Positions 5,940 to 54,821 of a DNA stretch of 64,000 nt are shown piece by piece; positions within the stretch are counted from its first letter, which is position 1, and each line of letters opens with the position of its first letter. The DNA comes from Gemmatimonadales bacterium (lineage in GTDB: Bacteria; Gemmatimonadota; Gemmatimonadetes; Gemmatimonadales; GWC2-71-9): the NCBI GenBank assembly GCA_035703525.1, contig DASSYA010000005.1, positions 82,532 through 146,531 on the forward strand. Reading direction: 5' to 3'. Under the pieces are notes generated by a model. It had not been told where the DNA came from, ran no database searches, and saw nothing but the letters and a program-made list of their open reading frames with translations. A program made the translations under genes and the position numbers.

Positions 5940-7670
5940 CTACTCAAGGGACTTCAACACCGCCACCGCCGCCTTCCGCACCCGCGCCTGCCCGGCCGCC
6001 ACCTCTGCCGTCAAGTCGAGGTGCGGCAGCGTCATCTCCGGGATCGCCGCGATCGCACCGATGTAGTAGTCGCGCCAGGCAGCAATGATGGTCTGCTGCA
6101 ACGCCGCCGAGTCGGCGGCTGCCGCGATTGCCGCCCGCGAGAGTGCTCCCTCCGCGGCAAGCCGCCGCTCGGCGATCCCCGCCATCTCGATGATCGCAGC
6201 ACGAGCATACGTCGGCTCGTTGCCAGCCGTCAGGATCAGCGAGCTCGCCAGTGCACAATTCCCCACGTGCTGCAGCTCGGCGGCGCTCACCATGTCGATT
6301 CGATCGAGATCGACGTGATAGTACTGGTCGGTGAAGTGCCACATCAGCAGTCCCGGAATCCCGGCGGAGAGGAACGGGGAGTGGTCGCTCCCCCCCTCGT
6401 AGGGGTTCGCCTTGACGACCCAGCTGCCGCCGGTGGCGAGTGACTGATCGACACACCGCTGCTTGACGAAGTCGTTGAAGTAGTGCGGCCAGATGTCCTT
6501 GGCCGTCATCCGTTGGCCTTCGCCCCACTCGGTGTGCTGGTCCTCACCACGCACCCAGATCTTCGATGGATCGGGCATCTTCTCGATCAGGAAGGTGCCG
6601 CCGGTGAGCGCCGTGTTCTCGCCCACCATGTCGAGCGACATTCCCCACTTGATTCCGCGCGCCCGCACCGAATCCTCCGAGATGTAGCGCCGCGTCTGGG
6701 TGATCTCGACGCCCCAGAGCATCGTGATGGTGCGCCCCGGATCGATCTCCCCGGCTCGAAGCATCACGGCCGCCGTCCGCGCCATCTCGGCGAGCAGGCC
6801 GACACCGGTCGCGTTGTCATTGGCGCCCGGCTCCTGCACATGGGCCGAATAGACGAACCGCTCCTCCGGCGCGATCGACCCGCGGATCTCCGCCACGACG
6901 GTCCGCTCCGGCCGCTCCTCGAAGACCGACTGCACGTCGACGTGGGCACGCACCGGCCCCTTCGCCATCGCGGCCAGGAGATGTTCCTTCGACTCGAGCG
7001 AGAGGAAGATCGTCCAGATCCTGTTCGTGCTGTCGAACGCCATCGACCGGAAATTGATCGCGGTGCGATTCTTCGACTGCTGGTTGTAGGCCGGCAGCGT
7101 CTGCGCCTGCAGGATACCGATCGCGCCCTCGGGGATGGCGGTGCGGCCACGGCGCGCACCCGGTGCCGGCGCATTGATGAACACGATCTTGCCGCGCACC
7201 TCCGGACTGCCCTCAGGGACGATCTCGGCGGTGACACCGCCCGTCGGGGTGGGCCACGAGTTCGACGCCAGCATGTTGTGGTTGGTCGACCACTGCTGGA
7301 GCGGGGTCGACTCGCCCTCGAGTGTGATCGAGGCATCGAGTGGCGACCAGGCCAGCCCGCGGAGCGGACGGGACTCGATGCGGTACGTCAATCGGTCGGA
7401 GGGCTTGGCGCGATCCTCGCGCACGTAGCCGGCCGCTTCGAGGAGCCCGGCCACCGTGTCGATTCCCGCATCGAAGCCGCGGCTCCCCGGGTCGCGGTAG
7501 AACCGCTGGACGTAGTCGACGGTCGTGAACGCCCGGTCACCCGAGAGGGTCTTCCTGATCGGTTCCGTGATCGGGGCGAACGCCGGGTTGGCTCGGACCG
7601 GGCTGGCCTGCTGGGCACAGGCGAGGGTCGGGATGAACGACAGGGCGACGAGCAGGCGGAGCAGGGACAC
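5940..7670 (-). CDS. Secreted M28-family metallopeptidase (aminopeptidase-like)
   Basis: N-terminal signal peptide (MSLLRLLVALSFIPTLACAQQ), M28 metal-ligand motifs 'HVQEPGANDNATGVGLLAEMAR' and 'EGGSDHSPFLSAGIPGL'. Confidence 0.85.
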   Translation of the reverse strand: MSLLRLLVALSFIPTLACAQQASPVRANPAFAPITEPIRKTLSGDRAFTTVDYVQRFYRDPGSRGFDAGIDTVAGLLEAAGYVREDRAKPSDRLTYRIESRPLRGLAWSPLDASITLEGESTPLQQWSTNHNMLASNSWPTPTGGVTAEIVPEGSPEVRGKIVFINAPAPGARRGRTAIPEGAIGILQAQTLPAYNQQSKNRTAINFRSMAFDSTNRIWTIFLSLESKEHLLAAMAKGPVRAHVDVQSVFEERPERTVVAEIRGSIAPEERFVYSAHVQEPGANDNATGVGLLAEMARTAAVMLRAGEIDPGRTITMLWGVEITQTRRYISEDSVRARGIKWGMSLDMVGENTALTGGTFLIEKMPDPSKIWVRGEDQHTEWGEGQRMTAKDIWPHYFNDFVKQRCVDQSLATGGSWVVKANPYEGGSDHSPFLSAGIPGLLMWHFTDQYYHVDLDRIDMVSAAELQHVGNCALASSLILTAGNEPTYARAAIIEMAGIAERRLAAEGALSRAAIAAAADSAALQQTIIAAWRDYYIGAIAAIPEMTLPHLDLTAEVAAGQARVRKAAVAVLKSLE

Positions 7671-7703
7671 GCAAGAACCTCGAGAGGAGGGACGAGTGGG
7701 CCA

Positions 7704-7751
7704 GAGATCCCTCGACTACGCGCCCTCCGGGCGCTCCGCTCGGGATGACTC
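7704..7751. repeat. REP-like nested palindromic element
   Basis: gagatccctcgac...gcgccc-tcc-gggcgc...tcgggatgactc: a central 6-bp/3-nt hairpin flanked by atccc/gggat pairing. It contains the 16-mer ctccgctcgggatgac (7734-7749), whose reverse complement recurs at 17852-17867. Confidence 0.5.
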
Positions 7752-7770
7752 CTTGGAACCGGCCGGAAAG

Positions 7771-7815
7771 CTACACCCTTCCGATCAACACTCCGAGCGT
7801 GCCGAGGTCGGGTTC
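7771..7815 (-). repeat. Orphan copy of the ppk 3' end (att-like direct repeat, left)
   Basis: 40/45 nt identical to 13086-13130 in the same orientation, starting exactly at the stop codon. The minus-strand reading is EPDLGTLGVLIGRV* versus EPDRGTHGVLIGRV* in ppk. Confidence 0.8.
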
Positions 7816-7820
7816 AGCTT

Positions 7821-8151
7821 GGTCTCTTTCGCAATCTGGTACCTCGCGGTAGACTGATTCAGACCCTGACAGGGGCCCTGCCGCCTCAGGTGCCCCGTTA
7901 TCGACCCAGGAGAGTCGTTATGCCCCCCCCCCGCTCAGCCATCAGCCGACGTCTCCACACTCCTCCTGGGCCTCCACGACCAACTCCTGGCGTTGACCCT
8001 CACCGAATCGCTCGCTCGGTCGTGTCGCGTGGTTGGTGTGGCCGCGTCCTGGAACGAATTCCACGACGCACTCGATGCTCATCACCCTTCGGTTGCACTG
8101 ATCGACATCCTCGTCGGTGCCGACCGTGTGATGCCCTATCTGGGAGCCATC
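7821..8151 (+). repeat. Direct repeat copy A (331 bp): regulator leader plus first ~230 nt of the regulator CDS
   Basis: Aligns base-for-base with 9518-9851, apart from the poly-C length (10 vs 13) and 6 substitutions that I counted by eye. Confidence 0.9.
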
Positions 8152-8277
8152 CAACTACTGCGAGGAAAATCAGGGCCCTGGTTGGCAGCAGCTGAACTGC
8201 GGTTGGAGCCCGCTGGGCTAAATCCCGACCGGAGCCGGGGTCTGCCGACTGGAGAGGCCCCGGCGTCCGGACGCTGA
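7920..8277 (+). pseudogene. Truncated duplicate of the LuxR-type response regulator (first part of receiver only, then unrelated tail)
   Basis: Same SD+ATG+poly-C start as the full gene. The receiver frame (..TLTESLARSCRVVGVAASWNEFHDALDAHHPSVALIDILVGADRVMPYLGAI) is identical up to 8151, then diverges and stops at 8277. No HTH domain. Confidence 0.65.
7923..7932 (+). repeat. Poly-C tract (10 nt) immediately after the ATG at 7920
   Basis: Counted directly: atg + 10 C + gctcag. The tract length is 3n+1, so the ATG frame is out of register with the receiver frame. Confidence 0.9.
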
Positions 8278-8301
8278 GCAACACGGCAATTTCACCGAGG
8301 G

Positions 8302-9456
8302 ATGATGATGCGATCGATGAGAACATTCGGAGCCAACATGGGCTGGGTCTGCGTCCTGCTTGCTGTCATGCCGTTAAGACTCGTGGCACAGGACCTTGAG
8401 ACGGTTCTGGACGGGAGCACCTCGATCATCAGCCGCTTCACGGCGATCGGAGTTGCGCAGTCCACGATACTGGTTCCCGATCAGGACGAGAATCGAGTGC
8501 TTCTGGTCAATAGTCGAGGAGGTGCGCACCTCTCATTTGGAAGGGAGGGGTCCGGGCCGGGTGAGTTCCGCCGGATCGGCCGGCTCGGCGCGTACGGCAC
8601 CGACGGATTCTGGGTCGAAGATCGAATGCAGATGCGACTCCACCTGATATCGCCAGATGCGAAGTCCCTGGGGGAGCGACCGATTCCGACGCGGATTGGG
8701 ACGCATGACGACAGATCAGGCGCCGACTTCATGAGCAATGCAGGGGTCCGTGCTGCCTACACCGACGGATTGATGCTCGTGGAGGTCTCCGCGCCCGGCG
8801 AGCGTGCGTTCAGTGCCAATTGGACTGGCCGATCGTCGTCCGGCGACGACGTTGCTTTCGCTCTCGTGGATTCGAGTGGGACTGTACGAAGGATCGCCGG
8901 TTGGCGTCGCGGGGTCCGCCGTTGTTTCGCATCGCCCACTGGAGTCACGATGCGAACGCCGCTCTGCGCTGATCCAATTGTCGAGGTGAGCCCGTCTGGC
9001 GACAGGGTCCTGTTCATCGAGGGCGATGCTGATGCAGGCAAGGGACGATCACGCCAGTTTCAGGTCGTTATAGTCGATCGAAAGGGAAGCCCGGTCAGGA
9101 CGAGCACGATTTCCTACGCTCCGCTCCGGATCTCCGCGACGGTCCGCGACAGCATGGTCGAGGGAGTGGCGAAGGTGTTCCCGCCGGACATGGCAAAGGC
9201 GATTCGCGCAGCTCCCGTTCCGGGGTTCTTCTACCCAGTACGCACGGCGGTTGTTGCGGATGACGGTTCATTCGCACTGGAAGTCTGGGATGCAGACTTC
9301 GATCACCGATACCGGATCTTCGGTAGTGACGGAATCGAACGCCCTTCTGTCACGTTGCCGAGTAGCGATACGGTAATCGGTATGACTGGCGTGTTCTATT
9401 ACGTGCTCCGAACCGACACGGATGGGATCCAGACCCTCCTGCGCGGCCGGCGATAG
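8302..9456 (+). CDS. Secreted NHL-like / 6-bladed beta-propeller-type protein, paralog 1
   Basis: Signal peptide (GWVCVLLAVMPLRLVAQD). The 'FGREGSGPGEFRRIGRL' motif is typical of NHL/6-bladed propeller blades. Paralogous to 10624..11685 (shared GxGPGE blade motif and C-terminal 'YYVLRTDTDG' vs 'WYVMRTDKDG'). Confidence 0.7.
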   Translation: MMMRSMRTFGANMGWVCVLLAVMPLRLVAQDLETVLDGSTSIISRFTAIGVAQSTILVPDQDENRVLLVNSRGGAHLSFGREGSGPGEFRRIGRLGAYGTDGFWVEDRMQMRLHLISPDAKSLGERPIPTRIGTHDDRSGADFMSNAGVRAAYTDGLMLVEVSAPGERAFSANWTGRSSSGDDVAFALVDSSGTVRRIAGWRRGVRRCFASPTGVTMRTPLCADPIVEVSPSGDRVLFIEGDADAGKGRSRQFQVVIVDRKGSPVRTSTISYAPLRISATVRDSMVEGVAKVFPPDMAKAIRAAPVPGFFYPVRTAVVADDGSFALEVWDADFDHRYRIFGSDGIERPSVTLPSSDTVIGMTGVFYYVLRTDTDGIQTLLRGRR

Positions 9457-9517
9457 TTCATGGCGGAAGTGGCAGTGACCAGGCTGCGCGTCTGTGGTGC
9501 TCGCTCGGGGTCGTCCC

Positions 9518-9851
9518 GGTCTCTTTCGCAATCTGGTACCTCGCGGTAGACTGATTCAGACCCTGACAGGGGCCCTGCCGCCTCAGGTGCCCCGTTATCG
9601 ACCCAGGAGAGTCGTTATGCCCCCCCCCCCCCGCTCAGCCATCAGCCGGCGTCTCCACACTCCTCCTGGGCCTCCACGACCAACTCCTGGCGTCGACCCT
9701 CACCGAATCGCTCGCTCGGTCGTGTCGCGTGGTTGGTGTGGCCGCGTCCTGGAACGAATTCCACGACGCACTCGATGCTCATCACCCTTCGGTTGCACTG
9801 ATTGATATCCTTGTCGGTGCCGACCGTGTGATGCCCTATCTGGGAGCCATC
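9518..9851 (+). repeat. Direct repeat copy B (334 bp)
   Basis: See copy A. It covers the leader, SD, ATG, poly-C tract and N-terminal receiver codons of the full-length regulator. Confidence 0.9.
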
Positions 9852-10274
9852 GTGACCCAATACAGGTCGACCGCTTTCATCCTCTGCACCGCCGATCTCG
9901 ATGATCTCCTGGTGGAGCGGGCACTGGTGGCGGGCGTGGCCGGTGTGCTGGGACATGACTGCACCGCGGAGCAATTGCTCTCGGTGATCCAGTCAACTCT
10001 CCAGGGGAATGCGTGGCCCGCTGGTGTCGGCCGGCCCGCGCTGGGGCATGCCGGCCGTCAGCGCCCGCTCGTCGCCATCACGGTCAGGCAACGTCAGGTA
10101 TTGGAACTCCTCTGGCAGGGATTGACACACAAGGAGATCGCCGAATTCCTTGGCCGCGGGATCAAGACGGTTGAGGGGATCGTGGGCAAGCTCCGGAGGG
10201 CTCACGGCTTGAAGCGAGGCGAAGTCGCGCCGTGGGAGGTGATGAGGAGGGGACGTCCCTCGGGCGGCGATTAG
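9617..10274 (+). CDS. Orphan LuxR/FixJ-family response regulator (atypical receiver + GerE-type HTH); ATG separated from the receiver frame by a +1 offset in a 13-nt poly-C tract
   Basis: AGGAGA at 9605-9610, 6 nt before the ATG at 9617. Receiver frame: STLLLGLHDQLL...VALIDILVG...AFILCTAD...; HTH: 'LTHKEIAEFLGRGIKTVEGIVGKLR'. The span is 658 nt (3n+1). The ORF track only recovers 9729..10274 from an internal GTG that would lack beta-strand 1. Confidence 0.8.
9620..9632 (+). repeat. Poly-C tract (13 nt) immediately after the ATG at 9617
   Basis: Counted directly: atg + 13 C + gctcag. 12 or 15 C would fuse the ATG to the receiver frame as MPPPPAQPSAGVSTLLLGLHD... Confidence 0.9.
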
Positions 10275-10623
10275 GGAAATAAGGTGGCGGGAGGGCCTAA
10301 TGCGCCGTCTATTGAGGTAGGTACCGAAAGCGCATGGTGTCGGGTGGATGTCGAGGCTCGCTGGACGATAGCCTCCTGGCGTGTGAGCCCGGCGCTTCGA
10401 CGGACTCTGTGATCGCAACGCTCACTGCCGCGTGGTCGGTGAGAACGGGGGTTCTGTGGACGGGAAGGATTTGTTGGGCACAACCGTGAGGTGTCGTTCT
10501 CCAAACGTGACGTGGCCGAGAGAACGACGTCTTGGTTGCAGGAGGGGAGTGCTCGCGTGTGTTCTCTTGAATGTCATCCAGCTGATGTCGGTTCACTCCC
10601 AGCGGGAATGCACCTCGAAGTGC

Positions 10624-11685
10624 ATGCCCTCGCGACGCCTGAGTGGTCCCTCGAGACTCAGCTTGCGCTCCCTGGTTGCATGGCTGGCCATTTGCTCCGT
10701 TCTGCCCTGCGCTCCGTCGCTCGCAGCCCAAACCGGGGCCCGCATGTATTTCGGAGAAAATGTGGAGTTCGGGTCGGTCCTCTTCGGAGCGGAGACGCCC
10801 AATCAGGGCCTCTGTGTGATCGATGGATCAGATCAAAAAATCCTTTGCTTCGATCGAGCGGGGAAGTTGCGGTTCTCCGTCGGCCGACGCGGCGAAGGGC
10901 CCGGCGAGTCGACCGGCTTGTACCGTCTGGCGGTCTCCCCAACCGGTCGGGTGTTCGGTCTCGATTTCGCCCGTCAAATGGTGAATGTCTACGACCCGGG
11001 TGGGAAATTCGAGCGCTCACTCCGCTTGCCGATCCCTTTCAGTCAGGTTCTCAGTTTTCTCGCGCCCACAGACTCGCTTCTGGTTCTAACCGCGACGGCC
11101 TTTGATGCCGGCCGGGCTTCGGATTTCGGTGTGCACACGTTCCGCGTGTCCGACTCCTTGGTCTATCTCACCTCGTTCGGCCCATTGCCAGAAACGAATG
11201 ATCGTCGGGTACTCTCGATGTTCGGCAGTGGGATAGCGACCCTGACGCCTCGTGGAACACTACTCTACTCACGGCGCTACCCGTATGACCTGTTCGAATT
11301 CAGTCTCGACGGGACACAGGTCCTCACGGTTCAGGGACCCGTCCATCTGACCACAAGCCTGGATGAGTTGATTGAAGTCAATCGATCTGCGACAAAGACC
11401 ACGTTCAGCTATGTCGGAGCAGAGAAGCCTGAACGCGTCGGTTCGGCCTACGATGGTGGCAACGGACGATGGTATGTGATGCGGACCGATAAGGATGGGC
11501 ACAAACTCTTCGATGTCTTCGACGCGCGAACGGGCCGGTGGCTTCCCAGTATCCCGTCCCCGATTCGTGATCCAGATCTCTCCCTTTTGGGAATGGACTT
11601 CAAGAACGGGTTCTATCTCGGCTCGACTCTCTGCGATGATGCGCCGTGTGTCCTCCGGGACCCGCTCAAGATCCGCGGTCCCTAA
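10624..11685 (+). CDS. Secreted NHL-like / 6-bladed beta-propeller-type protein, paralog 2
   Basis: ORF 10432..11685. The likely start is the ATG at 10624, giving signal peptide MPSRRLSGPSRLSLRSLVAWLAICSVLPCAPSLAAQ. Blade motif 'VGRRGEGPGESTGLYRLAVSPTGRVFGLD'. Confidence 0.65.
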   Translation: MPSRRLSGPSRLSLRSLVAWLAICSVLPCAPSLAAQTGARMYFGENVEFGSVLFGAETPNQGLCVIDGSDQKILCFDRAGKLRFSVGRRGEGPGESTGLYRLAVSPTGRVFGLDFARQMVNVYDPGGKFERSLRLPIPFSQVLSFLAPTDSLLVLTATAFDAGRASDFGVHTFRVSDSLVYLTSFGPLPETNDRRVLSMFGSGIATLTPRGTLLYSRRYPYDLFEFSLDGTQVLTVQGPVHLTTSLDELIEVNRSATKTTFSYVGAEKPERVGSAYDGGNGRWYVMRTDKDGHKLFDVFDARTGRWLPSIPSPIRDPDLSLLGMDFKNGFYLGSTLCDDAPCVLRDPLKIRGP

Positions 11686-11736
11686 CGCCGTGGTGGTGCA
11701 GTACCGCTCGACTCACCCGCAGTGAAGGAGAACTAC

Positions 11737-12174
11737 ATGTCCAGACTTCTGATCAGAATCGCAGCGACGTTGGCGCTGACGGTCGGTGGCGCCAACGCGA
11801 TCGGTGCGCAGGTACTGTCACCAGGTGTGGGAACTGGAGCTAGCGCCCAGGCACAAACGCCCAATGACTGCTTCTGGTTCTGTACCAACGTTCTTCATCC
11901 GATCGACGGGACCGTCATCGGACACCAATGCAACAACTATGGCTATGGCCACGTGGTACCGGAGCACGGCTTCTCCTGCATCGCGACCTCAGAATGGCGC
12001 ATCCTGGTGTCCGGGAATTTGTGTGACGGTCCGCTGGCAGTTCTCACCGCGGATGGAGTGCCGACCGTCCTTGCCAACGGGTGTTCACCGGGGAATGTGG
12101 CAGCCGCGTTCGCAACGGAAATGCCTTCTCACGGAGGGGTGATCGTAACCGCAAATAACTGGAGAGCAACATGA
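11737..12174 (+). CDS. Small secreted Cys-rich protein, paralog A (145 aa)
   Basis: AAGGAG at 11725-11730, 6 nt before the ATG at 11737. Signal peptide MSRLLIRIAATLALTVGGANAIGAQ. Six Cys including CFWFC. No family recognised. Confidence 0.6.
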   Translation: MSRLLIRIAATLALTVGGANAIGAQVLSPGVGTGASAQAQTPNDCFWFCTNVLHPIDGTVIGHQCNNYGYGHVVPEHGFSCIATSEWRILVSGNLCDGPLAVLTADGVPTVLANGCSPGNVAAAFATEMPSHGGVIVTANNWRAT

Positions 12175-12638
12175 TCCGTGTCATCATGCCACAACTGATC
12201 CTTGGGATCGTACTCGCTGCGGCTCCGGCCGCTGCTCAGTCGGTGCACCTCAGCTCCGGCTCCGGTGGAGCTACCGCGATGGCCCAGGTGCCACTGTGTG
12301 ACAAGTTCTGCGTGTGGCAGACCCACCCGAACACCGGAGACCCGATCGGCGTGGCATGCATCCAAGATGTGAATTCTCCTCCGAGCAATGAACAGCACGG
12401 GAGAGATTGTTCGACCTCCGGCTTCGACTGTTCCCTATTCCATCCCTGCCCGTTTGGAAGCGCGTTCGGCATTCTCCGCCCCGACCGCACGGTGCTGGCT
12501 TCTGGCACTGGTTGCAGCTGGACTCAATTCGTGGCGTTCTCCAATGAAAGGTCTGGTGTCGGTGGAACGATGCTTCCTCTACCAGGAGGCAGGCTTATCG
12601 TCGCATCTCCGCAACCTCCCGTCCTAGTCTCCGAGTAG
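12171..12638 (+). CDS. Small secreted Cys-rich protein, paralog B (155 aa)
   Basis: ATGA start/stop overlap with the preceding gene. Signal peptide ...LILGIVLAAAPAAAQS. It shares CxxxC...HPxxGxxIGxxC...HG..C...G.GCS spacing with paralog A. Confidence 0.6.
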   Translation: MIRVIMPQLILGIVLAAAPAAAQSVHLSSGSGGATAMAQVPLCDKFCVWQTHPNTGDPIGVACIQDVNSPPSNEQHGRDCSTSGFDCSLFHPCPFGSAFGILRPDRTVLASGTGCSWTQFVAFSNERSGVGGTMLPLPGGRLIVASPQPPVLVSE

Positions 12639-13085
12639 CATCTGGCGTGATAGGTAGGCTCAGGCGTGCCACGGGGTGCTTCGGTGTTTCTCAACGCCGA
12701 AGTCACTCCCTGGCATCGCTCGCCGACCGCCACCTGTAGGTCGCCTCTTGGTTCGATTGTCGCCGTGGAGTTCACCATTTGCTAGGTGAACAAGGCCGGG
12801 TATCGGACCCCAAGTCATCCAGTCGGTGGTGCCTGCCCCCCACCTGACGCCCGAATGACACCCGGTCACTTCATTCCATGGAGCGCACTCCGACCCCGAC
12901 CCCGATCCGGAACCTGTCAACGATTGTGAGACACGGGTGACCTTACATTTACTGTGCCCCCGCCGTGGCGAGCACGTCCGCCGTCGGGTTGATCCGGAAT
13001 CGACCGGAACGCTGATGTCGTTGACTTCGACGGGAGCTGGCTCCCTGAACTGAGGATGGGAGCCAGTGTCGCGGGAGGCCCACTT

Positions 13086-13130
13086 CTACACCCTCCCGAT
13101 CAACACCCCGTGCGTCCCGCGGTCGGGTTC
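13086..13130 (-). repeat. ppk 3' end = right-hand att-like direct repeat
   Basis: 40/45 identity to 7771-7815 (see that feature). Confidence 0.8.
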
Positions 13131-15227
13131 GCCCTGCTCCGGACGTCGCTGGTGGTAGCTGCCGTCGGGCAGCAGGTCCCACGCCTGGCGGTTGTCCTTG
13201 AGCATCAGCTCCAGCAACCGGCGCACCTCCGCCCGGTGACGCGGATCCTCGATCGGCACCGCCACCTCGACCCGACGCTCCAGGTTCCGCGGCATCCAGT
13301 CGGCCGACGAGATGTAGACCTCCTCCCGCCCACCGTTCCGGAACACCGCCGCACGTGAGTGTTCGAGGAACCGCCCCACGATCGAGATCACCCGGATGTT
13401 CTCGCTCACCCCCACGATCCCGGGCCTGAGGCAACAGATGCCCCGGATGATCAGGTCGACCTGCACCCCGGCCTGCGACGCCTCGTAGAGCGCATGAATC
13501 ACATCGCGATCCACCAGCGAATTCATCTTCGCCAGGATCCGACCCTGACGCCCGGCCCGCGCATGCTCGGTCTCTCGCCGGATCGCCGCCAGGACCTTCC
13601 GCTTGAGCCACCGTGGGGCCACGACCAGCTTCCGGAACTCCCCCGGGATCGCGAATCCCGTCAGCACATTGAACAGCCCCGACACGTCGGCCCCGATATC
13701 CTCATCGCAGGTCAGGAGCCCGAGGTCGGTATAGAGGCGTGCCGTCTTCGGGTTGTAGTTGCCGGTACCGACATGGACATAGCGCCGGATCGCGGTCCCC
13801 TCGCGCCGGACGATGAGGAGGATCTTCGCGTGCGTCTTGAGACCGGCATCGCCGTAGCTCACGTGCACACCGATCTCCTCGAAGCGCTTGGCCCACGAGA
13901 TGTTGTTCTCCTCGTCGAACCGCGCCTGCAACTCGATCAGCACCGCAACCTGCTTCCCCCGTTCGGCGGCATGCGCCAGCAAGCGCGCGATCTCGCCACC
14001 GGTCCGGTAGAGCGTGATCTTGATGGCCAGCACGTCAGGATCATCCGAGGCGACCGCGATCAATCGCTCGATCGAGGCGTCGAACGAATCGAACGGATGG
14101 TGCAGCAACAGGTCGCCCTCGCGGATCGCCTCGAAGATGTCACGGTGGTCGGCGAGCCGCTTCGGCACGCCCGGCACGAACGGCGGGTCCTTGAGCGCGG
14201 GCACGTCGAGCGCCGCAATCGCGTGGAGGGCGGTGGCATCGAGCAATCCCTCGACCTCGAAGATGTCGTCGCTGGTGAGTGCCAGACCCTCGCCGGCATG
14301 CGCCTCGTTGAACTCCTCGAGCAGCAGGTGCCGCATCGTGTCGGGCATCACCGGCTGCACCTCGATCCGCACCACCTCGCCGAACTTGCGGTTGCGCACC
14401 TCTTCCTGGATCAACTCCAGCAGGTCGTCGGCCTCGTCGTTGTCACCCTGACCGACCTCGAGATTGAGGTCGGTGTTGCGGGTGATCCGGAAGAAGTGGC
14501 TGCCCAGGATCGTGATCCCGGGGAAGAGCGCGTCGAGGTGCGCCTCGATCAGCAGCTCGAGCGGCAGGAACTGGTTGGCCGTGAGCAGCGGTACCCAGCG
14601 CGGCAGCAACTCGGGCACCTTGACGCGCGCGAACCGCGGCTCGCCCTGCTCGTCAAGCAGCGACACCGCGAGCGAGAGCGAGAGATTCGAGATATGCGGG
14701 AACGGGTGCGCCGGATCGACCGCGAGCGGCGTGAGCACCGGGTAGACATTCGCGAGGAAGTAGGCCGAGAGATGGGCGCGGTCGCGGTCGGGCAGGGCGG
14801 CCCAACTGTCGTGCAACACGATCCCGTGACGGGCGAGTGCCGGGACCAGGTCGAGCGTGAGGCATCGGCCGTGTTGCGCCACCATGCTCCGCGCCGTCTC
14901 GCGGATCGCGAGCAGTTGCTGGGCTGGCGGCATCGCATCGGCGACCTGCTCGCTGACGCGCGCAGCGACCTGCTCGCGGATGCCGGCCACGCGCACCTGG
15001 AAGAACTCGTCGAGGTTGCCCGAGAAGATGGCCAGGAACTTGATCCGTTCGAGGAGCGGGGTGCGCGGATCGAGCGCCTCGTGCAGCACGCGTCGATTGA
15101 ACTCCAGCCAGGACAACTCGCGGTTCTGGTAAAGTGCCGGATCGTGCAGATCGGGCGGTGTCGGTGCGGTTGCTGCCACCTCGTGCCGATCGCCGGGGCG
15201 TTCGGGCAACGATGTCGTCATCGCCAT
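13086..15227 (-). CDS. ppk: Polyphosphate kinase 1
   Basis: 713 aa. 'YQNRELSWLEFNRRVLHEA', 'RIKFLAIFSGNLDEFFQVRVAG' and C-terminal PLD-like domains ('THAKILLIVRRE', 'RFLEHSR') are characteristic of PPK1. Confidence 0.95.
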   Translation of the reverse strand: MAMTTSLPERPGDRHEVAATAPTPPDLHDPALYQNRELSWLEFNRRVLHEALDPRTPLLERIKFLAIFSGNLDEFFQVRVAGIREQVAARVSEQVADAMPPAQQLLAIRETARSMVAQHGRCLTLDLVPALARHGIVLHDSWAALPDRDRAHLSAYFLANVYPVLTPLAVDPAHPFPHISNLSLSLAVSLLDEQGEPRFARVKVPELLPRWVPLLTANQFLPLELLIEAHLDALFPGITILGSHFFRITRNTDLNLEVGQGDNDEADDLLELIQEEVRNRKFGEVVRIEVQPVMPDTMRHLLLEEFNEAHAGEGLALTSDDIFEVEGLLDATALHAIAALDVPALKDPPFVPGVPKRLADHRDIFEAIREGDLLLHHPFDSFDASIERLIAVASDDPDVLAIKITLYRTGGEIARLLAHAAERGKQVAVLIELQARFDEENNISWAKRFEEIGVHVSYGDAGLKTHAKILLIVRREGTAIRRYVHVGTGNYNPKTARLYTDLGLLTCDEDIGADVSGLFNVLTGFAIPGEFRKLVVAPRWLKRKVLAAIRRETEHARAGRQGRILAKMNSLVDRDVIHALYEASQAGVQVDLIIRGICCLRPGIVGVSENIRVISIVGRFLEHSRAAVFRNGGREEVYISSADWMPRNLERRVEVAVPIEDPRHRAEVRRLLELMLKDNRQAWDLLPDGSYHQRRPEQGEPDRGTHGVLIGRV

Positions 15228-15601
15228 TCCTCTCCGCGACGGCGCTCCGCCCCCGTCAACGCGGTGAGTGCGGTGCTCGCCAAGCCGATGATCAACCCAC
15301 CCCAGAAGGCGGGCCAGAAGCCATCAATCACGAACCCGAGCCCGAACGACTGCGAGAGTCGTGCCGTCGCGAGCAGCAGCAGCGCATTCACCACCAGCAT
15401 GAACAGCCCGAAGGTCAGCACGATCAGCGGGCAGGTCAGGATCGTGATCAACGGCTTGAGCAGCGCGTTGACCAGCGAGAAGACCAGGGCCACCCCGACC
15501 AGGGCGATCGGCTCGCCGGTCCAGTGAACGCCCGACACGAACGTCACCGCGACATAGAGCGCCAGTGTCGTGATCAGCAGGCGCACCACGAAGCGCTTCA
15601 T
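15218..15601 (-). CDS. Phage-holin-family (superfamily IV, 4-TM) membrane protein
   Basis: 127 aa. '[11 protein letters not shown]...[34 protein letters not shown]' matches the family pattern. Its stop overlaps the ppk start by 10 nt and its start overlaps the mnmA stop by 4 nt. Confidence 0.65.
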
Positions 15602-16674
15602 GCCGCGCTCGCGATCACGCCACCACCGAGGACCAGACCGTTGGGGCCGTAGCAGACCCCGGACTGCCCGGGCGCGATGGCACGGATCGGGACGTGCAGG
15701 TCGAAGGTCACGGCGTCGCCTCGCACCTGCCTGACGGTGGCGGGCACGGCCTGGCTGCGGTAGCGGAGTTGCACCTCACACTGATCGCCCTCGGCGAGCG
15801 GGGTGTCGACCAACCAGTTGCATTCCTCGAGTGTCACGACATCGCCCAGCAGCGCATCGGCATCGCCAACCACCACTTCCCGCGTCTCCGGCCGCACCCC
15901 CAGCACGTAGAGCGGTCGACTCCGGCCACCGGGGAGTCCGCGGCGCTGGCCAACGGTGTAGCCGGCGAAGCCGTCGTGCTCGCCCACCACGGTGCCATCG
16001 GCGGTGACGAGATGGCCGGGCGAGAGGGCGGGGGCATCGGCCGGCAGGTGCTGCTTGAGCACCTGCACATAATCCCCATCGGGAACGAAGCAGATCTCGA
16101 CGCTCTCCGGCTTGTCAGCGGTCACGAGGCCCGCTGCGCGTGCGGCATCCCGTGTCTCGGCCTTGGTCATCGTGCCGACCGGGGTCAGCATCCGTGCCAC
16201 CACGGCACGGTCGATCCCCCAGAGGAAGTAGCTCTGGTCCTTGTTCGCGTCGTCGCCGCGGAACAGTTGGCCACCCTCGGCGCGCGCGTAGTGTCCCGTC
16301 GCGAGCCAGTCGCACCCGAGGGCATCGGCGTGGGCGAGCAAGTCACGAAACTTGGTGAACGAGTTGCAGCGCACACAGGGGATCGGGGTCCGGCCGCTGG
16401 CATACTCCTCGACGAAGTCACGGATCACCCGATCGGAGAAGCGGTCCTCGAGATTGAGGACGTAGTGCGGGATCCCGAGCGTATGGGCGACGCTCTGGGC
16501 GTCGAAGATCGAATCGAGCGAGCAGCACGGGCGGTCGGGCACGTCCTCGCCGTGGCAGAAGAGCTTCATCGTGGCGCCGATGACCTCGTATCCCTGCTCG
16601 ACCAGCATCGCCGCCGCGAGCGACGAATCCACCCCGCCGCTCATCGCGACGAGGACCCGTCCCTTGTCAGGCAC
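15598..16674 (-). CDS. mnmA: tRNA 2-thiouridine(34) synthase MnmA
   Basis: PP-loop '[15 protein letters not shown]', catalytic Cys context '[13 protein letters not shown]', 'DQSYFLWG'. Confidence 0.95.
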
Positions 16675-17836
16675 GTCCGAGTGCCGTGCTGAGACCGCGC
16701 ACCTTCTCGACGATGCCGGGGAGGACCGCGATCACGCGTGCGATATCGGCGTCGGTGGTCTCATGCCCCATCGAGAACCGGATGGTCGAGAGCGCCATCG
16801 GACGGTCGACGCCCATCGCCACGAGGACATGGGACGGCTCGATGCTCCCGGTCGAGCATGCCGATCCACCCGAGCAGCAGATCCCCGCGAGGTCGAGATG
16901 CATCAGGAGCGATTCGGCATCGGTCCCCGGCATGCAGACCGAGAGCACATGCGGGGCACGCGGCGAGTCGGCAGCGTTGATGTGGAGGCCGGTGATCGCG
17001 GCTTGCAGCTCGGTCGCCAGTCGATCACGGAGTGCTCCGAGACGAGCGATGTGATGGTCGAGCTCGGCATGTGCGATCTGGGCGGCGCGACCCATCGCGA
17101 CGGCGCCCGCCACGTTCTCGGTGCCGGGCCGGATCCCGAACTGCTGACCGCCACCATGGATGATCGCCTCGATGAGCTTGCGGTTCCGGACGATCAGCGC
17201 GCCGACGCCCTTCGGCGCCCCGATCTTGTGGCCGCTCAGTGAACAGAGATCGGCGTGGATCGCCTCGAGGTCGATCGCGATCTTGCCGAAGGCCTGGACG
17301 GCATCGGTGTGCAATGGCACGCCGGCGGCGCGACATCGCGCGCCGATCTCCGCCATCGGCTGGATCACACCGGTTTCATTGTTGACCCACATCACCGACA
17401 CCAGACTGGGCTGCTCCAGGAGCACGCGGTCGAGGGCGTCCATGTCAAGGATGCCGTCGGTGCCCACCGGGAGGATCGTCTCGCGGCCACCGAGTCGGGT
17501 CACGGCGTGGGCCGACGCGAGGGCGGCCTTGTGCTCGATCGCGGTGGTCACCACATGCATCTCGCGACCGGCGGCCTTGGCGGCCATGGCGGCGCCGACG
17601 ATGGCGAGGTTATCGGCCTCGGTGCCGCCCGAGGTGAAGATCACCTGATTGGGCTGGACCCCGACCGCGGCGGCGAGTTCGCGCTTGGCCTGTTCGAGGC
17701 CGGCCCGGGCCCCGCGGCCCAAGCAGTGGGCGGAGGAGGGGTTCCCCCAGCTCTCCCGGAAGAACGGCAGCATCGCGTCGAGCACTTCGGCGCGAACGGG
17801 CGTGGTCGCGGCGTAATCGAGGTAGGTCGTGGTCAT
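16667..17836 (-). CDS. Cysteine desulfurase (NifS/IscS family, PLP-dependent)
   Basis: '[10 protein letters not shown]', '[13 protein letters not shown]', PLP-Lys '[16 protein letters not shown]', active-site '[10 protein letters not shown]'. Overlaps the mnmA start by 8 nt. Confidence 0.9.
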
Positions 17837-17851
17837 GGATGGAATTTAGCA

Positions 17852-18045
17852 CGTCATCCCGAGCGGAGGCGGCAACGCCGCCGGAGTCGGCCGAGCCGCG
17901 GCCGTCAGCCGAGCCGCGGCCGTCAGGCCGCGGTTTGCTGCGCGAATCGGAGGAGCAATGCCGAGCCGCGGGCGTCAGCCCGCGGTTTGGTGCGCGAATC
18001 GGCGGAGCGGAACCGCGGTGCGAGGCGAACACAGCCGCGGCTCGG
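17852..18045. repeat. Composite intergenic repeat array rich in CCGCGG palindromes
   Basis: The 18-mer gccgagccgcggccgtca occurs at 17889-17906 and 17907-17924, with a 1-mismatch copy at 17959-17976. A ~33-nt unit (g[gc]ccgcggttt.gtgcgcgaatcgg.ggagc) occurs at 17925 and 17977. An inverted partial copy gccgcggctcggc lies at 18033-18045. The array begins with the 16-mer gtcatcccgagcggag shared with 7734-7749. Confidence 0.6.
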
Positions 18046-53311: not shown

Positions 53312-53459
53312 TGACGAGTTGACGGACGAACACACCTGCGGGGCGTGCATATCGCGGCCAACAGGTGTACCTCTTGAAAGATCCTGAACATCCTCGGATC
53401 CCCTGACCGGAGCCTCGCCATGAACGCCCCCCCCCTCGACCACTCGTAGTCTGATTGCG

Positions 53460-54821
53460 GTGATCTGCCCGTGGGTGGCTCTGCTCGCCATCGTTGGATG
53501 TGATCAACCCGTTGGTGTCGATGGTGATCTTGGTGGTCCAGCCACCACGCCCAGTTTTTCCCTCGTCAACGATCCAACCGACATCGCAGTCTGTGGCGGC
53601 CCGGGGTTGGTCAACAATGACCGCAACGGGATCGATCGCACCTGTCTGCTGCAGGGCAACATCGGGTTGAATTTCAATCTCGCGAATGGAGTGTCCAAAT
53701 TGAACATCCTCCCCGCGATGGAACCAGGGAACCTCTTCCTGAAAGACTTGACCTCAATGCCCCTCTTGTCCGAGGTGTCATCGGGTGGAGTCCCATTCAA
53801 CGTGCACGGCTTGTCAGGTTCCAATCAATACTGCGGGGATACTCCAGGGGGCAGCGGCGGCCACGTACTCCGAGTGGATATCTGGCCGGCAAGCGATCCC
53901 GCGTGCAATAGCGGTGGCTCGGGCACCCTGAGGGAGATCGCGGCCCACGAGATGTCGCATGTCCTCGGTTGGAACGGCGGCCATGGCGGCTCACCGGATG
54001 CGGCAAACTCATTCACCGTCGGATGTGCAGCCTTCATCGACATCGGTACGGTGCCGCTGAGCTCAGCGGCGTGCCGCCATGACGTCGAGGCACTCTTCCG
54101 CGCAAAGGCCAGTACCTCAGGATGGACGCTCCCGGCGACATACGCCTATTCGCCGATTCTCTGGACTACCGATGCGCCGAGTTCCGCCTCGGTGGCGGTT
54201 GGCGCCACATCCCAGGTCGACATCACCCAATGGCTTGGGACCACCGGTGCGTCGGTCTCCCGGGGAAATTCCAGTGTCAGCTGGTTCTCCGGCGATACAT
54301 CCCGCTTCACCGTTACTTCCAGTGGCGAACTGGCAGGCCAGTCCGTCGGATCGGCCAAGCTCTACCTCAAGGCGCCCGCCTCGACGGCGGGATACACCAT
54401 CTGGACACCCTTCACGGTCAATGGCGATTCGCTCACGGTTCAGGTCAGTCCACCCGCCTATGTCGTCACCTCGGACCAGACTCCAATCACGTCCGAGGGG
54501 TATCACACCTTCACATCACATGTCGGCGATCCGGGATCGAGTCGCGTCTGGTCGGTTGACGACAGCAGGACGATTTACACCGTGCCGGACACGACGTTTT
54601 CAACTCCGGGCAACGAAGCGATCATCTGGGTCGGAGCAGGCTCCTATACCCTCCGATTTGGGGTCCTAGGCTCCTACCAGGACATCCCCGGGTGCACCGG
54701 CGGTGGCGATGGGTATGCCGCTCAACTCCCACAATCGAAGACGTCGACCGGTATCCAGAAGAAGCCCACGGGGCCGGTGCCGAATGCCGTGGAGGGGTGT
54801 CCACCGGGCGGGGACCAATAG
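53460..54821 (+). CDS. Lipoprotein with zincin HExxH motif (metzincin-like variant) and Big_2-like Ig domain(s)
   Basis: GTG start. Lipobox 'LLAIVGCD'. 'IAAHEMSHVLGWNGGH' is encoded at 53946-53984. A Big_2-like stretch 'VSWFSGDTSRFTVTSSGELAGQSVGSAKLYLKA'. No family assigned. Confidence 0.6.
   Translation: MICPWVALLAIVGCDQPVGVDGDLGGPATTPSFSLVNDPTDIAVCGGPGLVNNDRNGIDRTCLLQGNIGLNFNLANGVSKLNILPAMEPGNLFLKDLTSMPLLSEVSSGGVPFNVHGLSGSNQYCGDTPGGSGGHVLRVDIWPASDPACNSGGSGTLREIAAHEMSHVLGWNGGHGGSPDAANSFTVGCAAFIDIGTVPLSSAACRHDVEALFRAKASTSGWTLPATYAYSPILWTTDAPSSASVAVGATSQVDITQWLGTTGASVSRGNSSVSWFSGDTSRFTVTSSGELAGQSVGSAKLYLKAPASTAGYTIWTPFTVNGDSLTVQVSPPAYVVTSDQTPITSEGYHTFTSHVGDPGSSRVWSVDDSRTIYTVPDTTFSTPGNEAIIWVGAGSYTLRFGVLGSYQDIPGCTGGGDGYAAQLPQSKTSTGIQKKPTGPVPNAVEGCPPGGDQ

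What the first reader, a model, noticed from the sequence alone, without database searches (positions are those of the whole stretch)
7816..12638. System-level hypothesis: a switchable island encoding an extracellular propeller plus Cys-rich protein module
Taken together, the island contains (i) an orphan atypical LuxR regulator whose translation depends on poly-C length. It contains (ii) a second copy of that regulator's leader and switch region placed before propeller 1. It contains (iii) two secreted propellers and (iv) two coupled Cys-rich secreted proteins. All are on one strand with short gaps. The hexamer GGTACC or its GTACC core recurs in the shared leader (9535-9540, 7838-7843), upstream of propeller 2 (10319-10324) and upstream of the first Cys-rich gene (about 11701-11705). 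That recurrence may be coincidence. A plausible reading is a horizontally acquired, stochastically expressed surface or secreted module for antagonism, adhesion or predation. I know of no described system with this composition.
Basis: inference. Interest (0 to 1): 0.72.

Follow-up and report, generated by a model that had tools for sequence, protein, structure and literature searches.

The report
Variable secreted propeller and cysteine-rich cassette
Between two housekeeping genes of a Gemmatimonadales bacterium lies a fast-changing gene cassette: a regulator that starts with a run of C's, followed by secreted propeller proteins and a pair of previously undescribed cysteine-rich proteins. The same gene set recurs in other lineages, but its function and any on/off switching are unproven.

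Summary
The core set, regulator, propeller 2, Cys1 and Cys2, is a conserved module. The propeller-Cys1-Cys2 triad recurs in the same order in at least four other lineages, at different chromosomal sites. Once it follows a response regulator that also begins MCPPPP, encoded by a C-run.

In related genomes the site between the M28 peptidase gene and ppk always holds the orthologous regulator, followed by different cargo. That cargo always includes an NHL-type propeller plus a small cysteine-rich or thioredoxin-like secreted protein. So this is an old, hypervariable cassette locus, not a one-off acquisition.

The switch idea needs correcting. Intact homologues read NTG-TGC-(CCC)n in frame. This window keeps that phase (13 C) but has TTA where the start codon should be, and an out-of-frame ATG. 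Full-length translation from a canonical start therefore needs a tract of 3n C's.

The tract is clearly mutable: 10, 13 and 22 C in near-identical DNA. It is also conserved as a homopolymer. However, every length seen is in the same phase, so no ON/OFF polymorphism was observed.

GGTACC is common across the whole window and is not conserved in orthologous leaders. The function of the module is unknown.

The parts
7771..7824 (-). Remnant copy of the 3' end of ppk. It would encode DQAEPDLGTLGVLIGRV*, and it sits at the left edge of the island.
   Evidence: 54-nt direct repeat of 13086-13139 at 83% identity. Local alignment score 65 against a shuffle mean of 17.5 and maximum of 31. Not detectable in L001, L005 or L006.
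7808..8151 (+). Repeat copy 1: leader, ATG at 7920, C10 at 7923-7932, and the first 76 codons of the regulator. This is a truncated duplicate; its regulator-frame ORF ends at 8275-8277.
   Evidence: Both non-synonymous differences between the two copies are derived in copy 1 when compared with the homologues.
8302..9456 (+). Propeller 1: a secreted, highly divergent NHL/DUF5128-like propeller of 384 aa.
   Evidence: Signal peptide by inspection. Weak DUF5128 match (E=0.037). Shares the GxGxGPGEF blade with propeller 2 and other locus propellers. Absent from L001.
9505..9616 (+). Leader of the full-length regulator. It is conserved with L001, L005 and L006 (block CGGTAGACT..TCAGAC.TGACAG) and carries a Shine-Dalgarno sequence AGGAGA.
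   Evidence: Five-sequence alignment.
9617..10274 (+). Orphan NarL/FixJ-type response regulator gene. ATG is at 9617 and C13 at 9620-9632. The REC plus HTH frame is offset by one base from the ATG, and the codon that is the in-frame start in homologues is TTA (9615-9617).
10275..10291 (+). Conserved 17-nt block GGAAATAAGGTGGCGGG immediately after the regulator stop codon. It marks the boundary beyond which cargo differs between genomes.
   Evidence: Identical in L005, L006 and L008 at the same position; the sequences diverge directly after it.
10624..11685 (+). Propeller 2: a secreted six-bladed NHL-type propeller of 353 aa, and the first gene of the conserved triad.
   Evidence: Pfam DUF5128 E=2.9e-7. 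AlphaFold2 pTM 0.66; best PDB matches are the Brat NHL domain (E=4e-13) and BF0058 (4raa). Orthologues at 34-40% identity directly precede Cys1/Cys2 homologues.
11737..12174 (+). Cys1: a secreted cysteine-rich protein of 145 aa. It has 6 Cys, one fewer than its homologues at the conserved positions.
   Evidence: Good Shine-Dalgarno sequence GAAGGAG at 11724-11730.
12171..12638 (+). Cys2: a secreted cysteine-rich paralogue of 155 aa with 7 conserved Cys. It is translationally coupled to Cys1 through an ATGA overlap.
13034..13066 (.). GC-rich hairpin between the cargo and the ppk stop codon; a likely terminator for the convergent transcripts.
   Evidence: Shared with L006. Predicted folding energy -27 kcal/mol for 13030-13086.

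Best explanation
SHOWN.

The region is one allele of a hypervariable chromosomal cassette locus in a Gemmatimonadales lineage. The locus is fixed between the M28 peptidase gene and ppk.

Its constant part has three pieces: a conserved leader, an orphan NarL-type response regulator, and a 17-nt block just after the regulator's stop codon. The regulator's receiver domain lacks the acidic pair and the conserved Lys. Its codons 2-6 (Cys-Pro4-5) are encoded by a length-variable poly-C run.

The variable part is cargo. It always includes at least one secreted NHL-type six-bladed propeller and at least one small secreted cysteine-rich or thioredoxin-like protein.

In this window the cargo is the operon propeller 2, Cys1, Cys2. 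That triad is a portable module found in the same order in at least four other lineages, at other chromosomal sites.

A 1.7-kb extra unit sits upstream of it. This unit is a truncated regulator duplicate plus propeller 1, and it arose by partial duplication or inter-allele recombination.

In this genome the regulator cannot be translated in frame from a canonical start. The ancestral TTG is now TTA, and the same base change created an ATG one base out of frame.

INFERRED.

The regulator activates the downstream cargo operon.

Slipped-strand changes in the C-run (to 12 or 15 C here) would restore translation from the new ATG. That makes the tract a potential contingency switch.

The three cargo proteins are exported by Sec and folded oxidatively. 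They then act together outside the cytoplasm, probably as a propeller bound to a Cys1/Cys2 heterodimer.

The rapid replacement of cargo between close relatives points to a role in recognition or antagonism between cells. That last step is a guess.
For: Same site, same regulator, different cargo. This holds in L005, L006 (=L007) and L008. ppk is 93-96% identical, mnmA 91-92% and M28 82-83%. The regulator is only 63-66% identical, and the cargo is non-orthologous.

Sharp cargo boundary after the 17-nt block.

Conserved module.
- L018 has regulator, propeller, Cys1-like and Cys2-like genes.
- L011/L013, L014 and L021 carry the triad.
- L017 and L020 carry the Cys pair.

Cys family. There are 12 hits among 1.84 billion representatives, with 7 conserved Cys.

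Propeller fold.

Intact homologues start (T/A)TG TGC (CCC)n. The corrected window ORF is covered 100% by them, and correcting the frame extends the REC match from profile position 25 to position 7.

The homopolymer itself is conserved. CCC is only 27% of Pro codons in the flanking housekeeping genes, yet all Pro codons of the tract are CCC in three divergent lineages.

The tract is mutable. It has 10, 13 and 22 C in sequences whose surrounding DNA is 98-99.7% identical.

Assembly error is unlikely. The other eleven G/C runs of 8-10 nt, apart from the two island tracts and the one at 53427, all lie inside intact long open reading spans.

A related module (L011 and L013) has G8 against G9 inside a TTGACA-N16/17-TACTGT promoter-like spacer.
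Against: No frame-switching length variant was seen. All tract differences are multiples of 3.

In this lineage the start codon is lost in both window copies. In L001 the Shine-Dalgarno and start region is deleted. The regulator may therefore simply be dying.

No regulator is visible next to the triad in L011/L013. There the promoter-like site sits directly upstream, though only about 140 nt of upstream sequence is available.

No binding site, transcript or protein data exist.

The Cys-rich proteins of the other locus alleles (L005, L006, L008) show no detectable homology to Cys1/Cys2 (hhalign probability 0.7%). The 'common theme' across alleles therefore rests on shared features, not on homology.

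The AlphaFold2 model of Cys2 is poor (pLDDT 54), so it gives no structural clue to function.
Confidence: 0.55

Rival explanations
1. Decaying regulator. The poly-C run is only a mutational hotspot. In this lineage the regulator is a pseudogene, with its start codon lost, and the cargo is expressed constitutively or under another regulator. There is no adaptive switching.
For: TTG has become TTA in both window copies. L001 lacks the Shine-Dalgarno and start region. Copy 1 is truncated. No ON/OFF length polymorphism was seen.
Against: The 218-codon frame is otherwise intact and identical in L001. The homopolymer is maintained against codon usage in lineages sharing only about 30% protein identity. 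The same base change that destroys TTG creates a strong ATG with good Shine-Dalgarno spacing, one slippage step away from ON.
Confidence: 0.3
2. Recoding rather than mutation. Ribosomes start at the ATG (GTG in homologues) and shift +1 on the slippery CCC-C run, or RNA polymerase slips on the run. A fraction of full-length regulator would then be made from a tract of 3n+1 without any DNA change.
For: Every tract seen is 3n+1 relative to the (A/G)TG, which lies 6-7 nt after the Shine-Dalgarno sequence. From general knowledge, CCC-C is a known +1-prone site and poly-proline stalls ribosomes.
Against: In L005, L006 and L018 an ordinary in-frame TTG or ATG start two bases upstream explains the phase without any recoding. 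L018 uses ATG with the same short Shine-Dalgarno spacing. There is no slow or stop codon directly after the tract in the window.
Confidence: 0.08
3. The Pro run is a protein-level feature. An N-terminal poly-proline stalling motif would make the regulator's level depend on elongation factor P, as with CadC in E. coli. The homopolymer and its length changes would be by-products.
For: The MCPPPP(P)A N-terminus is conserved in L005, L006 and L018. Length changes occur in whole codons.
Against: This does not explain the exclusive use of CCC, when CCG is 66% of Pro codons in the flanking genes. It also does not explain the window's lost start codon.
Confidence: 0.15
4. Homopolymer miscalls in the assemblies. 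The true tract would be 12 C and the gene simply ON.
For: Long C-runs are error-prone. The L008 contig breaks next to the tract. The C22 and leader deletion in L001 could be a graph artefact.
Against: The other eleven G/C runs of 8-10 nt in the window lie in intact long ORFs. Two independent copies in the window are both in the 3n+1 phase, which is also the phase of the intact homologues.
Confidence: 0.07
5. The island is the remnant of an integrative element that inserted into the 3' end of ppk, and the cargo genes are passenger genes.
For: A 54-nt, 83%-identical duplicate of the ppk 3' end lies at the left edge. The island has low GC and low GC3. The triad occurs at other sites, once beside an IS transposase.
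Against: There is no integrase, transposase or tRNA in or beside the island. The duplicate is not detectable in L001, L005 or L006, although they carry the locus at the same site. The regulator is vertically conserved with the flanks.
Confidence: 0.2

Closest known systems
Bordetella bvgS C-run frameshift phase variation (own knowledge: Stibitz et al. 1989)
   Same: A run of C's inside a two-component regulatory gene whose frame decides whether a set of secreted or surface proteins is made.
   Different: There the run is 6 C, internal to the sensor kinase, and ON/OFF variants have been shown experimentally. Here it is 10-22 C at codons 2-6 of an orphan regulator with a degenerate receiver, and no frame-switching variant has been seen.
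Campylobacter jejuni flgR/flgS homopolymer mutations (review PMC8355987)
   Same: A response regulator switched off by indels in short homopolymers.
   Different: Those are A/T tracts shorter than 7, described there as mostly non-reversible. The target is flagellar genes, not an adjacent secreted cassette.
DUF5128 / TolB-like six-bladed propellers of Bacteroidota (for example BF0058, PDB 4raa)
   Same: Same Pfam family for propeller 2 and the same predicted NHL-type fold. They are exported, occur in paralogue clusters, and have unknown function.
   Different: The partners here are a new cysteine-rich family and a response regulator. Sequence identity is very low (11-17%).
Methylamine dehydrogenase (propeller heavy subunit plus disulfide-rich light subunit)
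   Same: A periplasmic propeller of about 350-390 aa encoded with a small, Cys- and Trp-rich secreted partner.
   Different: There is no sequence match between the Cys family and any PDB chain. That propeller has seven blades, not six. No mauG, mauD or mauE-like maturation genes are present. This is an analogy only.
Variable cassette loci bounded by conserved genes (capsule or O-antigen loci, bacteriocin/immunity islets)
   Same: Conserved flanks and a sharp boundary, with non-homologous cargo in close relatives. An 8.3-kb block is 99.6% identical between strains that differ by 2-5% elsewhere.
   Different: The cargo type (propeller plus Cys-rich pair) and the built-in regulator with a C-run are not described for such loci.

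Membership tests
NarL/FixJ-type response regulator | C-terminal LuxR/GerE helix-turn-helix | tested here: inconclusive
   GerE scores 22.9-23.3 bits against a cut-off of 23.5. Sigma70_r4_2 scores 26.4-26.9 bits against a cut-off of 25.7. NCBIfam UhpA, MadR, MctR and NarL models match at E 1e-6 to 5e-10 but far below their equivalog cut-offs.
NarL/FixJ-type response regulator | Receiver domain with an acidic pair, a phospho-acceptor Asp, a Thr/Ser and a Lys | tested here: not met
   Response_reg scores 25.5 bits against a cut-off of 30.2. The DD pair is replaced by L-H and the Lys by His in the window, L005 and L006. The L018 regulator has all of these residues.
NarL/FixJ-type response regulator | Cognate histidine kinase encoded nearby | tested here: not met
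   No kinase lies between M28 and ppk or in the flanks of the window, L005 or L006.
Simple-sequence contingency (phase-variable) locus | Homopolymer of at least 8-9 nt in the 5' coding region or promoter | tested here: met
   C13 starts 3 nt after the ATG. Homologues have C12-C16 at codons 2-6.
Simple-sequence contingency (phase-variable) locus | Tract length differs between near-identical sequences | tested here: met
   10, 13 and 22 C, with 98-99.7% identity around the tract.
Simple-sequence contingency (phase-variable) locus | Length variants that change the reading frame (ON and OFF alleles) | tested here: not met
   All observed lengths are in one phase: 10, 13, 13, 16 and 22, plus 12+A in L018. 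The sample is only six tracts.
Simple-sequence contingency (phase-variable) locus | Length heterogeneity within one population | not testable with these tools
   This needs the raw reads.
DUF5128 / NHL six-bladed beta-propeller | Pfam match above the gathering score | tested here: met
   Propeller 2 scores 30.4 bits against a cut-off of 22.9. Propeller 1 scores only 13.6 bits and does not pass.
DUF5128 / NHL six-bladed beta-propeller | Six-bladed NHL-like fold | tested here: met
   Propeller 2 model: pTM 0.66. Brat NHL domain E=4e-13, TM-score 0.57/0.69. BF0058 (4raa) E=1.3e-8. The model is of moderate confidence (pLDDT 65). Propeller 1 was not modelled.
TTQ amine dehydrogenase (MauB/MauA) | Light subunit homologous to MauA, with MauG/D/E maturation genes | tested here: not met
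   The profile of 11 family members finds no PDB chain below E=0.68. No such genes are in the island.
Integrative genomic island | Flanking direct repeats derived from the target gene | tested here: met
   7771-7824 matches 13086-13139 at 83% identity.
Integrative genomic island | Integrase or recombinase, or a tRNA target | tested here: not met
   None among the ORFs of 7671-13085. There is no tRNA in the window.
Known anti-phage defence systems | Match to a PADLOC model | tested here: not met
   No hit for the propellers or the Cys proteins. The regulator gives only weak HTH-level hits.

The most novel reading that the evidence does not exclude
A previously undescribed kind of diversifying extracellular module in Gemmatimonadota. 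It would consist of an NHL-type propeller that works with a heterodimer of two disulfide-rich proteins from a new family. The module would be carried as exchangeable cassettes at a fixed chromosomal site and gated by an orphan pseudo-receiver regulator. That regulator's conserved poly-C start acts as a heritable, reversible switch. The module would serve strain-level antagonism or recognition.
Probability: 0.2. Interest if true: 0.75.

Novelty: new variant of a known kind. Interest (0 to 1): 0.55.

Why it matters
Gemmatimonadota are abundant in soils and waters but almost unstudied genetically. This locus offers three things.

1. A new family of secreted cysteine-rich proteins that always travels as a coupled pair behind a propeller. 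This gives a first functional partner for the large DUF5128/NHL propeller expansions, whose role is unknown.
2. A natural cassette-exchange site with a sharp, conserved boundary. Such a site is useful for studying how strain-specific secreted repertoires turn over.
3. A candidate simple-sequence switch in a phylum where phase variation has not, to my knowledge, been described. Its state can be read directly from metagenomic reads.

If the switch and a role in antagonism were confirmed, this would extend contingency-locus biology from host-associated pathogens to free-living environmental bacteria.

Tried and rejected
- GGTACC as a regulatory motif. It occurs 19 times in the window against 4.9 expected, and is not conserved in the orthologous leaders of L001, L005 and L006. 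Rejected.
- Shared motifs between the regulator-cargo intergenic regions of five loci. Only the 17-nt block after the stop codon is shared.
- Homology between Cys1/Cys2 and the Cys-rich proteins of L006. hhalign probability is 0.7%; no homology detected.
- Pfam, NCBIfam and PADLOC scans of the Cys proteins and of all 11 family members. Nothing found.
- PDB sequence profile search. Nothing below E=0.68.
- AlphaFold2 model of Cys2. pLDDT is 54, and Foldseek found no match with E below 0.6.
- The two long proteins hit by the Cys profile (P0016, P0021). The matches fall in Ig-like or filamin repeats of adhesin-like proteins and are probably spurious.
- Amine-dehydrogenase analogy. No support.
- Rfam scan of 7000-13500 and a tRNA scan of the window. 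Nothing found.
- Plasmid collection searched with Cys2. No match.
- Metagenome scan with the regulator profile. It returned only an unrelated NarL-type regulator with its own kinase (L009).
- Two exact look-ups of the 181-aa regulator ORF. Not on record.
- Literature searches for DUF5128, NVEALA, and Gemmatimonadetes phase variation. Nothing relevant beyond general phase-variation reviews.
- sigma-70 promoter scan of the island. No sites.
- Propeller alignment that included locus-derived sequences.

Full report
**What is in the window.**

The stretch 7671-13085 lies between an M28 peptidase gene (5940-7670, minus strand) and ppk (13086-15227, minus strand). GC falls to 0.58-0.63 here, against about 0.67 around it. 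Third-position GC is 0.64-0.73, against 0.85-0.88 in ppk, M28 and mnmA.

All island genes are on the plus strand:
- a truncated regulator copy (repeat 7808-8151);
- propeller 1 (8302-9456);
- the full regulator (ATG at 9617, stop at 10274);
- propeller 2 (10624-11685; I chose this ATG because it gives a signal peptide, as in the homologues);
- Cys1 (11737-12174);
- Cys2 (12171-12638, overlapping Cys1 by ATGA).

The repeat is 96-98% identical over 344 nt. It contains the leader, the ATG, the C-run (10 against 13 C) and the first 76 codons of the regulator.

**The regulator.**

With 12 C the ATG opens a 218-aa protein with a receiver domain and a LuxR-type helix-turn-helix. Correcting the frame extends the receiver match from profile position 25 to position 7. 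The best NCBIfam matches are NarL/UhpA-type regulators.

Two intact homologues cover 100% of the corrected protein at 65-66% identity. They are P0008 (220 aa) and P0009 (219 aa), and they begin MCPPPPPAKQ and MCPPPPAHQ. The corrected frame is therefore the real gene.

In an alignment with NarL, this clade keeps the acceptor Asp and the Thr. It has Leu-His in place of the acidic pair and His in place of the conserved Lys. No kinase gene is nearby. 'Orphan and atypical' is a fair description.

**The C-run, re-read by comparison.**

The homologues read as follows:
- L005: TTG TGC (CCC)5 GCT, with 16 C.
- L006: TTG TGC (CCC)4 GCC, with 13 C.
- L018, a far more distant regulator (about 30% identity over its C-terminal half, and with a typical receiver): ATG TGC CCC CCC CCC CCA GCT, with 12 C. 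It also starts MCPPPPA.

The window reads TTA TGC (CCC)4 GCT. It has the same phase and 13 C, but TTA stands where the start codon should be. The same G-to-A change creates ATG one base out of frame (TT ATG C...). Both window copies share this. No other canonical start exists in the open frame, which begins at 9567.

But the present OFF state comes from a substitution, not from a change in tract length.

The tract is clearly unstable. It has 10 and 13 C in the two window copies and 22 C in L001, while the surrounding DNA is 98-99.7% identical.

It is also maintained as a homopolymer. CCC is only 27% of Pro codons in the flanking genes and CCG is 66%, yet the tract is pure C in lineages that share only about 30% protein identity.

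Against a working switch, all six tracts are in the same phase, so no ON/OFF pair has been seen. In L001 the Shine-Dalgarno and start region is missing, although that contig could be mis-assembled at the run.

A general homopolymer error in the window is unlikely. Apart from the two island tracts and the run at 53427, the other eleven G/C runs of 8-10 nt all sit inside intact long reading frames.

**The locus in relatives.**

L005, L006 (the same contig as L007, an NCBI MAG) and L008 (a Gemmatimonadales MAG) are relatives of the window organism. Their ppk is 93-96% identical, mnmA 91-92% and M28 82-83%. The regulator sits at the same place between M28 and ppk in all three. It is only 63-66% identical, and the cargo differs:
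- L006: a 318-aa protein, then propeller 390, a Cys-rich protein of 141 aa (7 Cys), propeller 379, and a Cys-rich protein of 140 aa (7 Cys).
- L005: a Cys-rich protein of 87 aa (6 Cys), a DsbA/thioredoxin-like protein, propeller 372, and a 754-aa protein.
- L008: propeller 378 and a CxxC lipoprotein. It also has an uncalled small ORF for a 75-aa secreted peptide with 7 Cys.

The sequences are identical for 17 nt after the regulator stop codon (GGAAATAAGGTGGCGGG) and then diverge abruptly.

The propellers are all distant paralogues. They share little beyond the GxGxGPGEF blade.

**L001, the same species.**

L001 lacks the 1.7-kb unit made of the truncated regulator copy and propeller 1. It is 99.6% identical to the window from the C-run to 17889, but only 95-98% identical on either side. 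This points to a recent recombinational exchange whose left end is at the tract.

**The cargo module.**

Cys1 alone finds only itself in the word-indexed search. An exhaustive profile search with Cys1 and Cys2 finds a small family: 12 proteins with E<=1e-3 among 1.84 billion representatives. Most are 125-157 aa with 7 conserved Cys, and they fall into a Cys1-like and a Cys2-like subfamily.

Their genomic contexts are consistent:
- L011-L013: propeller (40% identity to propeller 2), Cys1-like (44%), Cys2-like (43%). dUTPase and argG genes follow, so this is a different chromosomal site.
- L014: the C-terminal end of a propeller, then Cys1-like and Cys2-like.
- L018: groEL, response regulator, propeller (38%), Cys1-like, Cys2-like.
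- L021: propeller (34%), Cys1-like, Cys2-like, then an IS transposase.
- L017: the Cys pair, followed by further propeller and Cys-rich genes.
- L020: the Cys pair only.

Wherever the upstream side can be seen, a propeller 2-type gene directly precedes the pair. In L018 the regulator with the C-run start is there as well.

In L011 and L013 the triad has a TTGACA-N16/17-TACTGT promoter-like site. Its spacer holds G8 in one sample and G9 in the other, with identical flanks. This is a second hint of simple-sequence control, but it rests on only two contigs.

**What the proteins are.**

Propeller 2 passes the Pfam DUF5128 threshold. Its AlphaFold2 model (pLDDT 65, pTM 0.66) matches NHL six-bladed propellers (Brat, E=4e-13). 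It also matches the Bacteroides exported protein BF0058. Propeller 1 is too divergent to pass.

The Cys family has no match in Pfam, NCBIfam, PADLOC or PDB sequences. Its model is poor (pLDDT 54, all-beta) and finds nothing.

The signal peptides, the translational coupling of Cys1 and Cys2, the odd number of conserved Cys, and the thiol-oxidoreductase genes in sister alleles all fit an oxidatively folded, extracytoplasmic complex. That is inference.

**Other points checked.**

GGTACC is four times over-represented across the whole window (19 sites against 4.9 expected). The leader copy is CCGGTAT, CCGGTTT and CCGGTTC in the orthologous leaders, so it is not a signal.

A 54-nt copy of the ppk 3' end (83% identical) lies at 7771-7824. 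It fits an old insertion or rearrangement at the end of ppk. However, there is no integrase and no tRNA, and the other genomes lack a detectable copy.

**Verdict.**

The anatomy is confirmed. The system-level idea passes its own co-occurrence test for regulator, propeller 2, Cys1 and Cys2.

The 'island' is better described as an allele of an old hypervariable cassette locus that carries a portable three-gene module.

The switch is plausible, because the homopolymer is conserved and hypermutable at the start of the regulator gene. It is unproven, and in this genome it is entangled with a start-codon substitution. A decaying regulator is the main rival.

Function is unknown. A secreted propeller plus disulfide-rich heterodimer involved in strain-level interactions is my best guess, at low confidence.

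Noticed in passing
window 53420-53435 and ORF 53460-54821: A second low-GC islet (0.62-0.63 at 53-56 kb) holds ATG AAC G followed by C9, one base out of frame with a 453-aa secreted protein that has an HExxH motif. With C8 the ATG would give a proper lipoprotein signal peptide, MNAPPSTTRSLIAVICPWVALLAIVGC. This is the only other G/C run in the window that sits at the very 5' end of an open frame. A TolB-like lipoprotein gene (54822-55769) follows.
   Followed up: partly
window 7771-7824 and 13086-13139: There is a 54-nt, 83%-identical duplicate of the last 17 codons and stop of ppk at the far edge of the island. It is not detectable at the same place in L001, L005 or L006.
   Followed up: partly
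window 10275-10291; L005 10664-10680; L006 10661-10677; L008 607-623: The 17-nt block GGAAATAAGGTGGCGGG directly after the regulator stop is identical in four genomes whose regulators are only 63-66% identical. Homology ends abruptly after it. It may be a cassette junction or a regulatory site.
   Followed up: partly
L011 56-63 and L013 98-106: The homologous propeller-Cys1-Cys2 operon of another lineage has a TTGACA ... TACTGT promoter-like site. Its spacer contains G8 in one sample and G9 in another, with identical flanks.
   Followed up: partly
window 9620-17889 against L001 7884-16153: An 8.3-kb block is 99.6% identical between two strains that are 95-98% identical on both sides. The block covers the regulator body, propeller 2, Cys1, Cys2, ppk, a membrane protein gene, mnmA and part of a cysteine desulfurase gene. 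Its left breakpoint is exactly at the C-run. This is either recent recombination or a chimeric metagenome contig.
   Followed up: partly
L001 7854-7896: L001 has C22 and lacks about 35 nt of leader, including the Shine-Dalgarno sequence and the start codon. Its leader otherwise resembles the L005/L006 type rather than the window type.
   Followed up: partly
whole window: GGTACC (the KpnI site) occurs 19 times, against 4.9 expected from dinucleotide-preserving shuffles, and none of 100 shuffles reached 19. The cause is unknown and may be codon-driven.
   Followed up: no
L008 about 2450-2680: An uncalled small ORF encodes a 75-aa secreted peptide with 7 Cys (MFGMGKRPLRVV...CIGPP). It lies between a CxxC lipoprotein gene and ppk.
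   Followed up: no
L007 (= L006), record title: The NCBI MAG that carries this locus is labelled 'Actinomycetales bacterium'. Its ppk, mnmA and M28 are 82-93% identical to those of the window, and its ppk, mnmA and regulator are 80-95% identical to those of a Gemmatimonadales MAG (L008). The contig is probably mis-binned or mislabelled.
   Followed up: no
L004 6178-11056 and 13949-20757: The contig with the 30%-identical propeller P0003 carries several further secreted propeller paralogues and many small ORFs of unknown function, but no Cys1/Cys2 homologue.
   Followed up: partly
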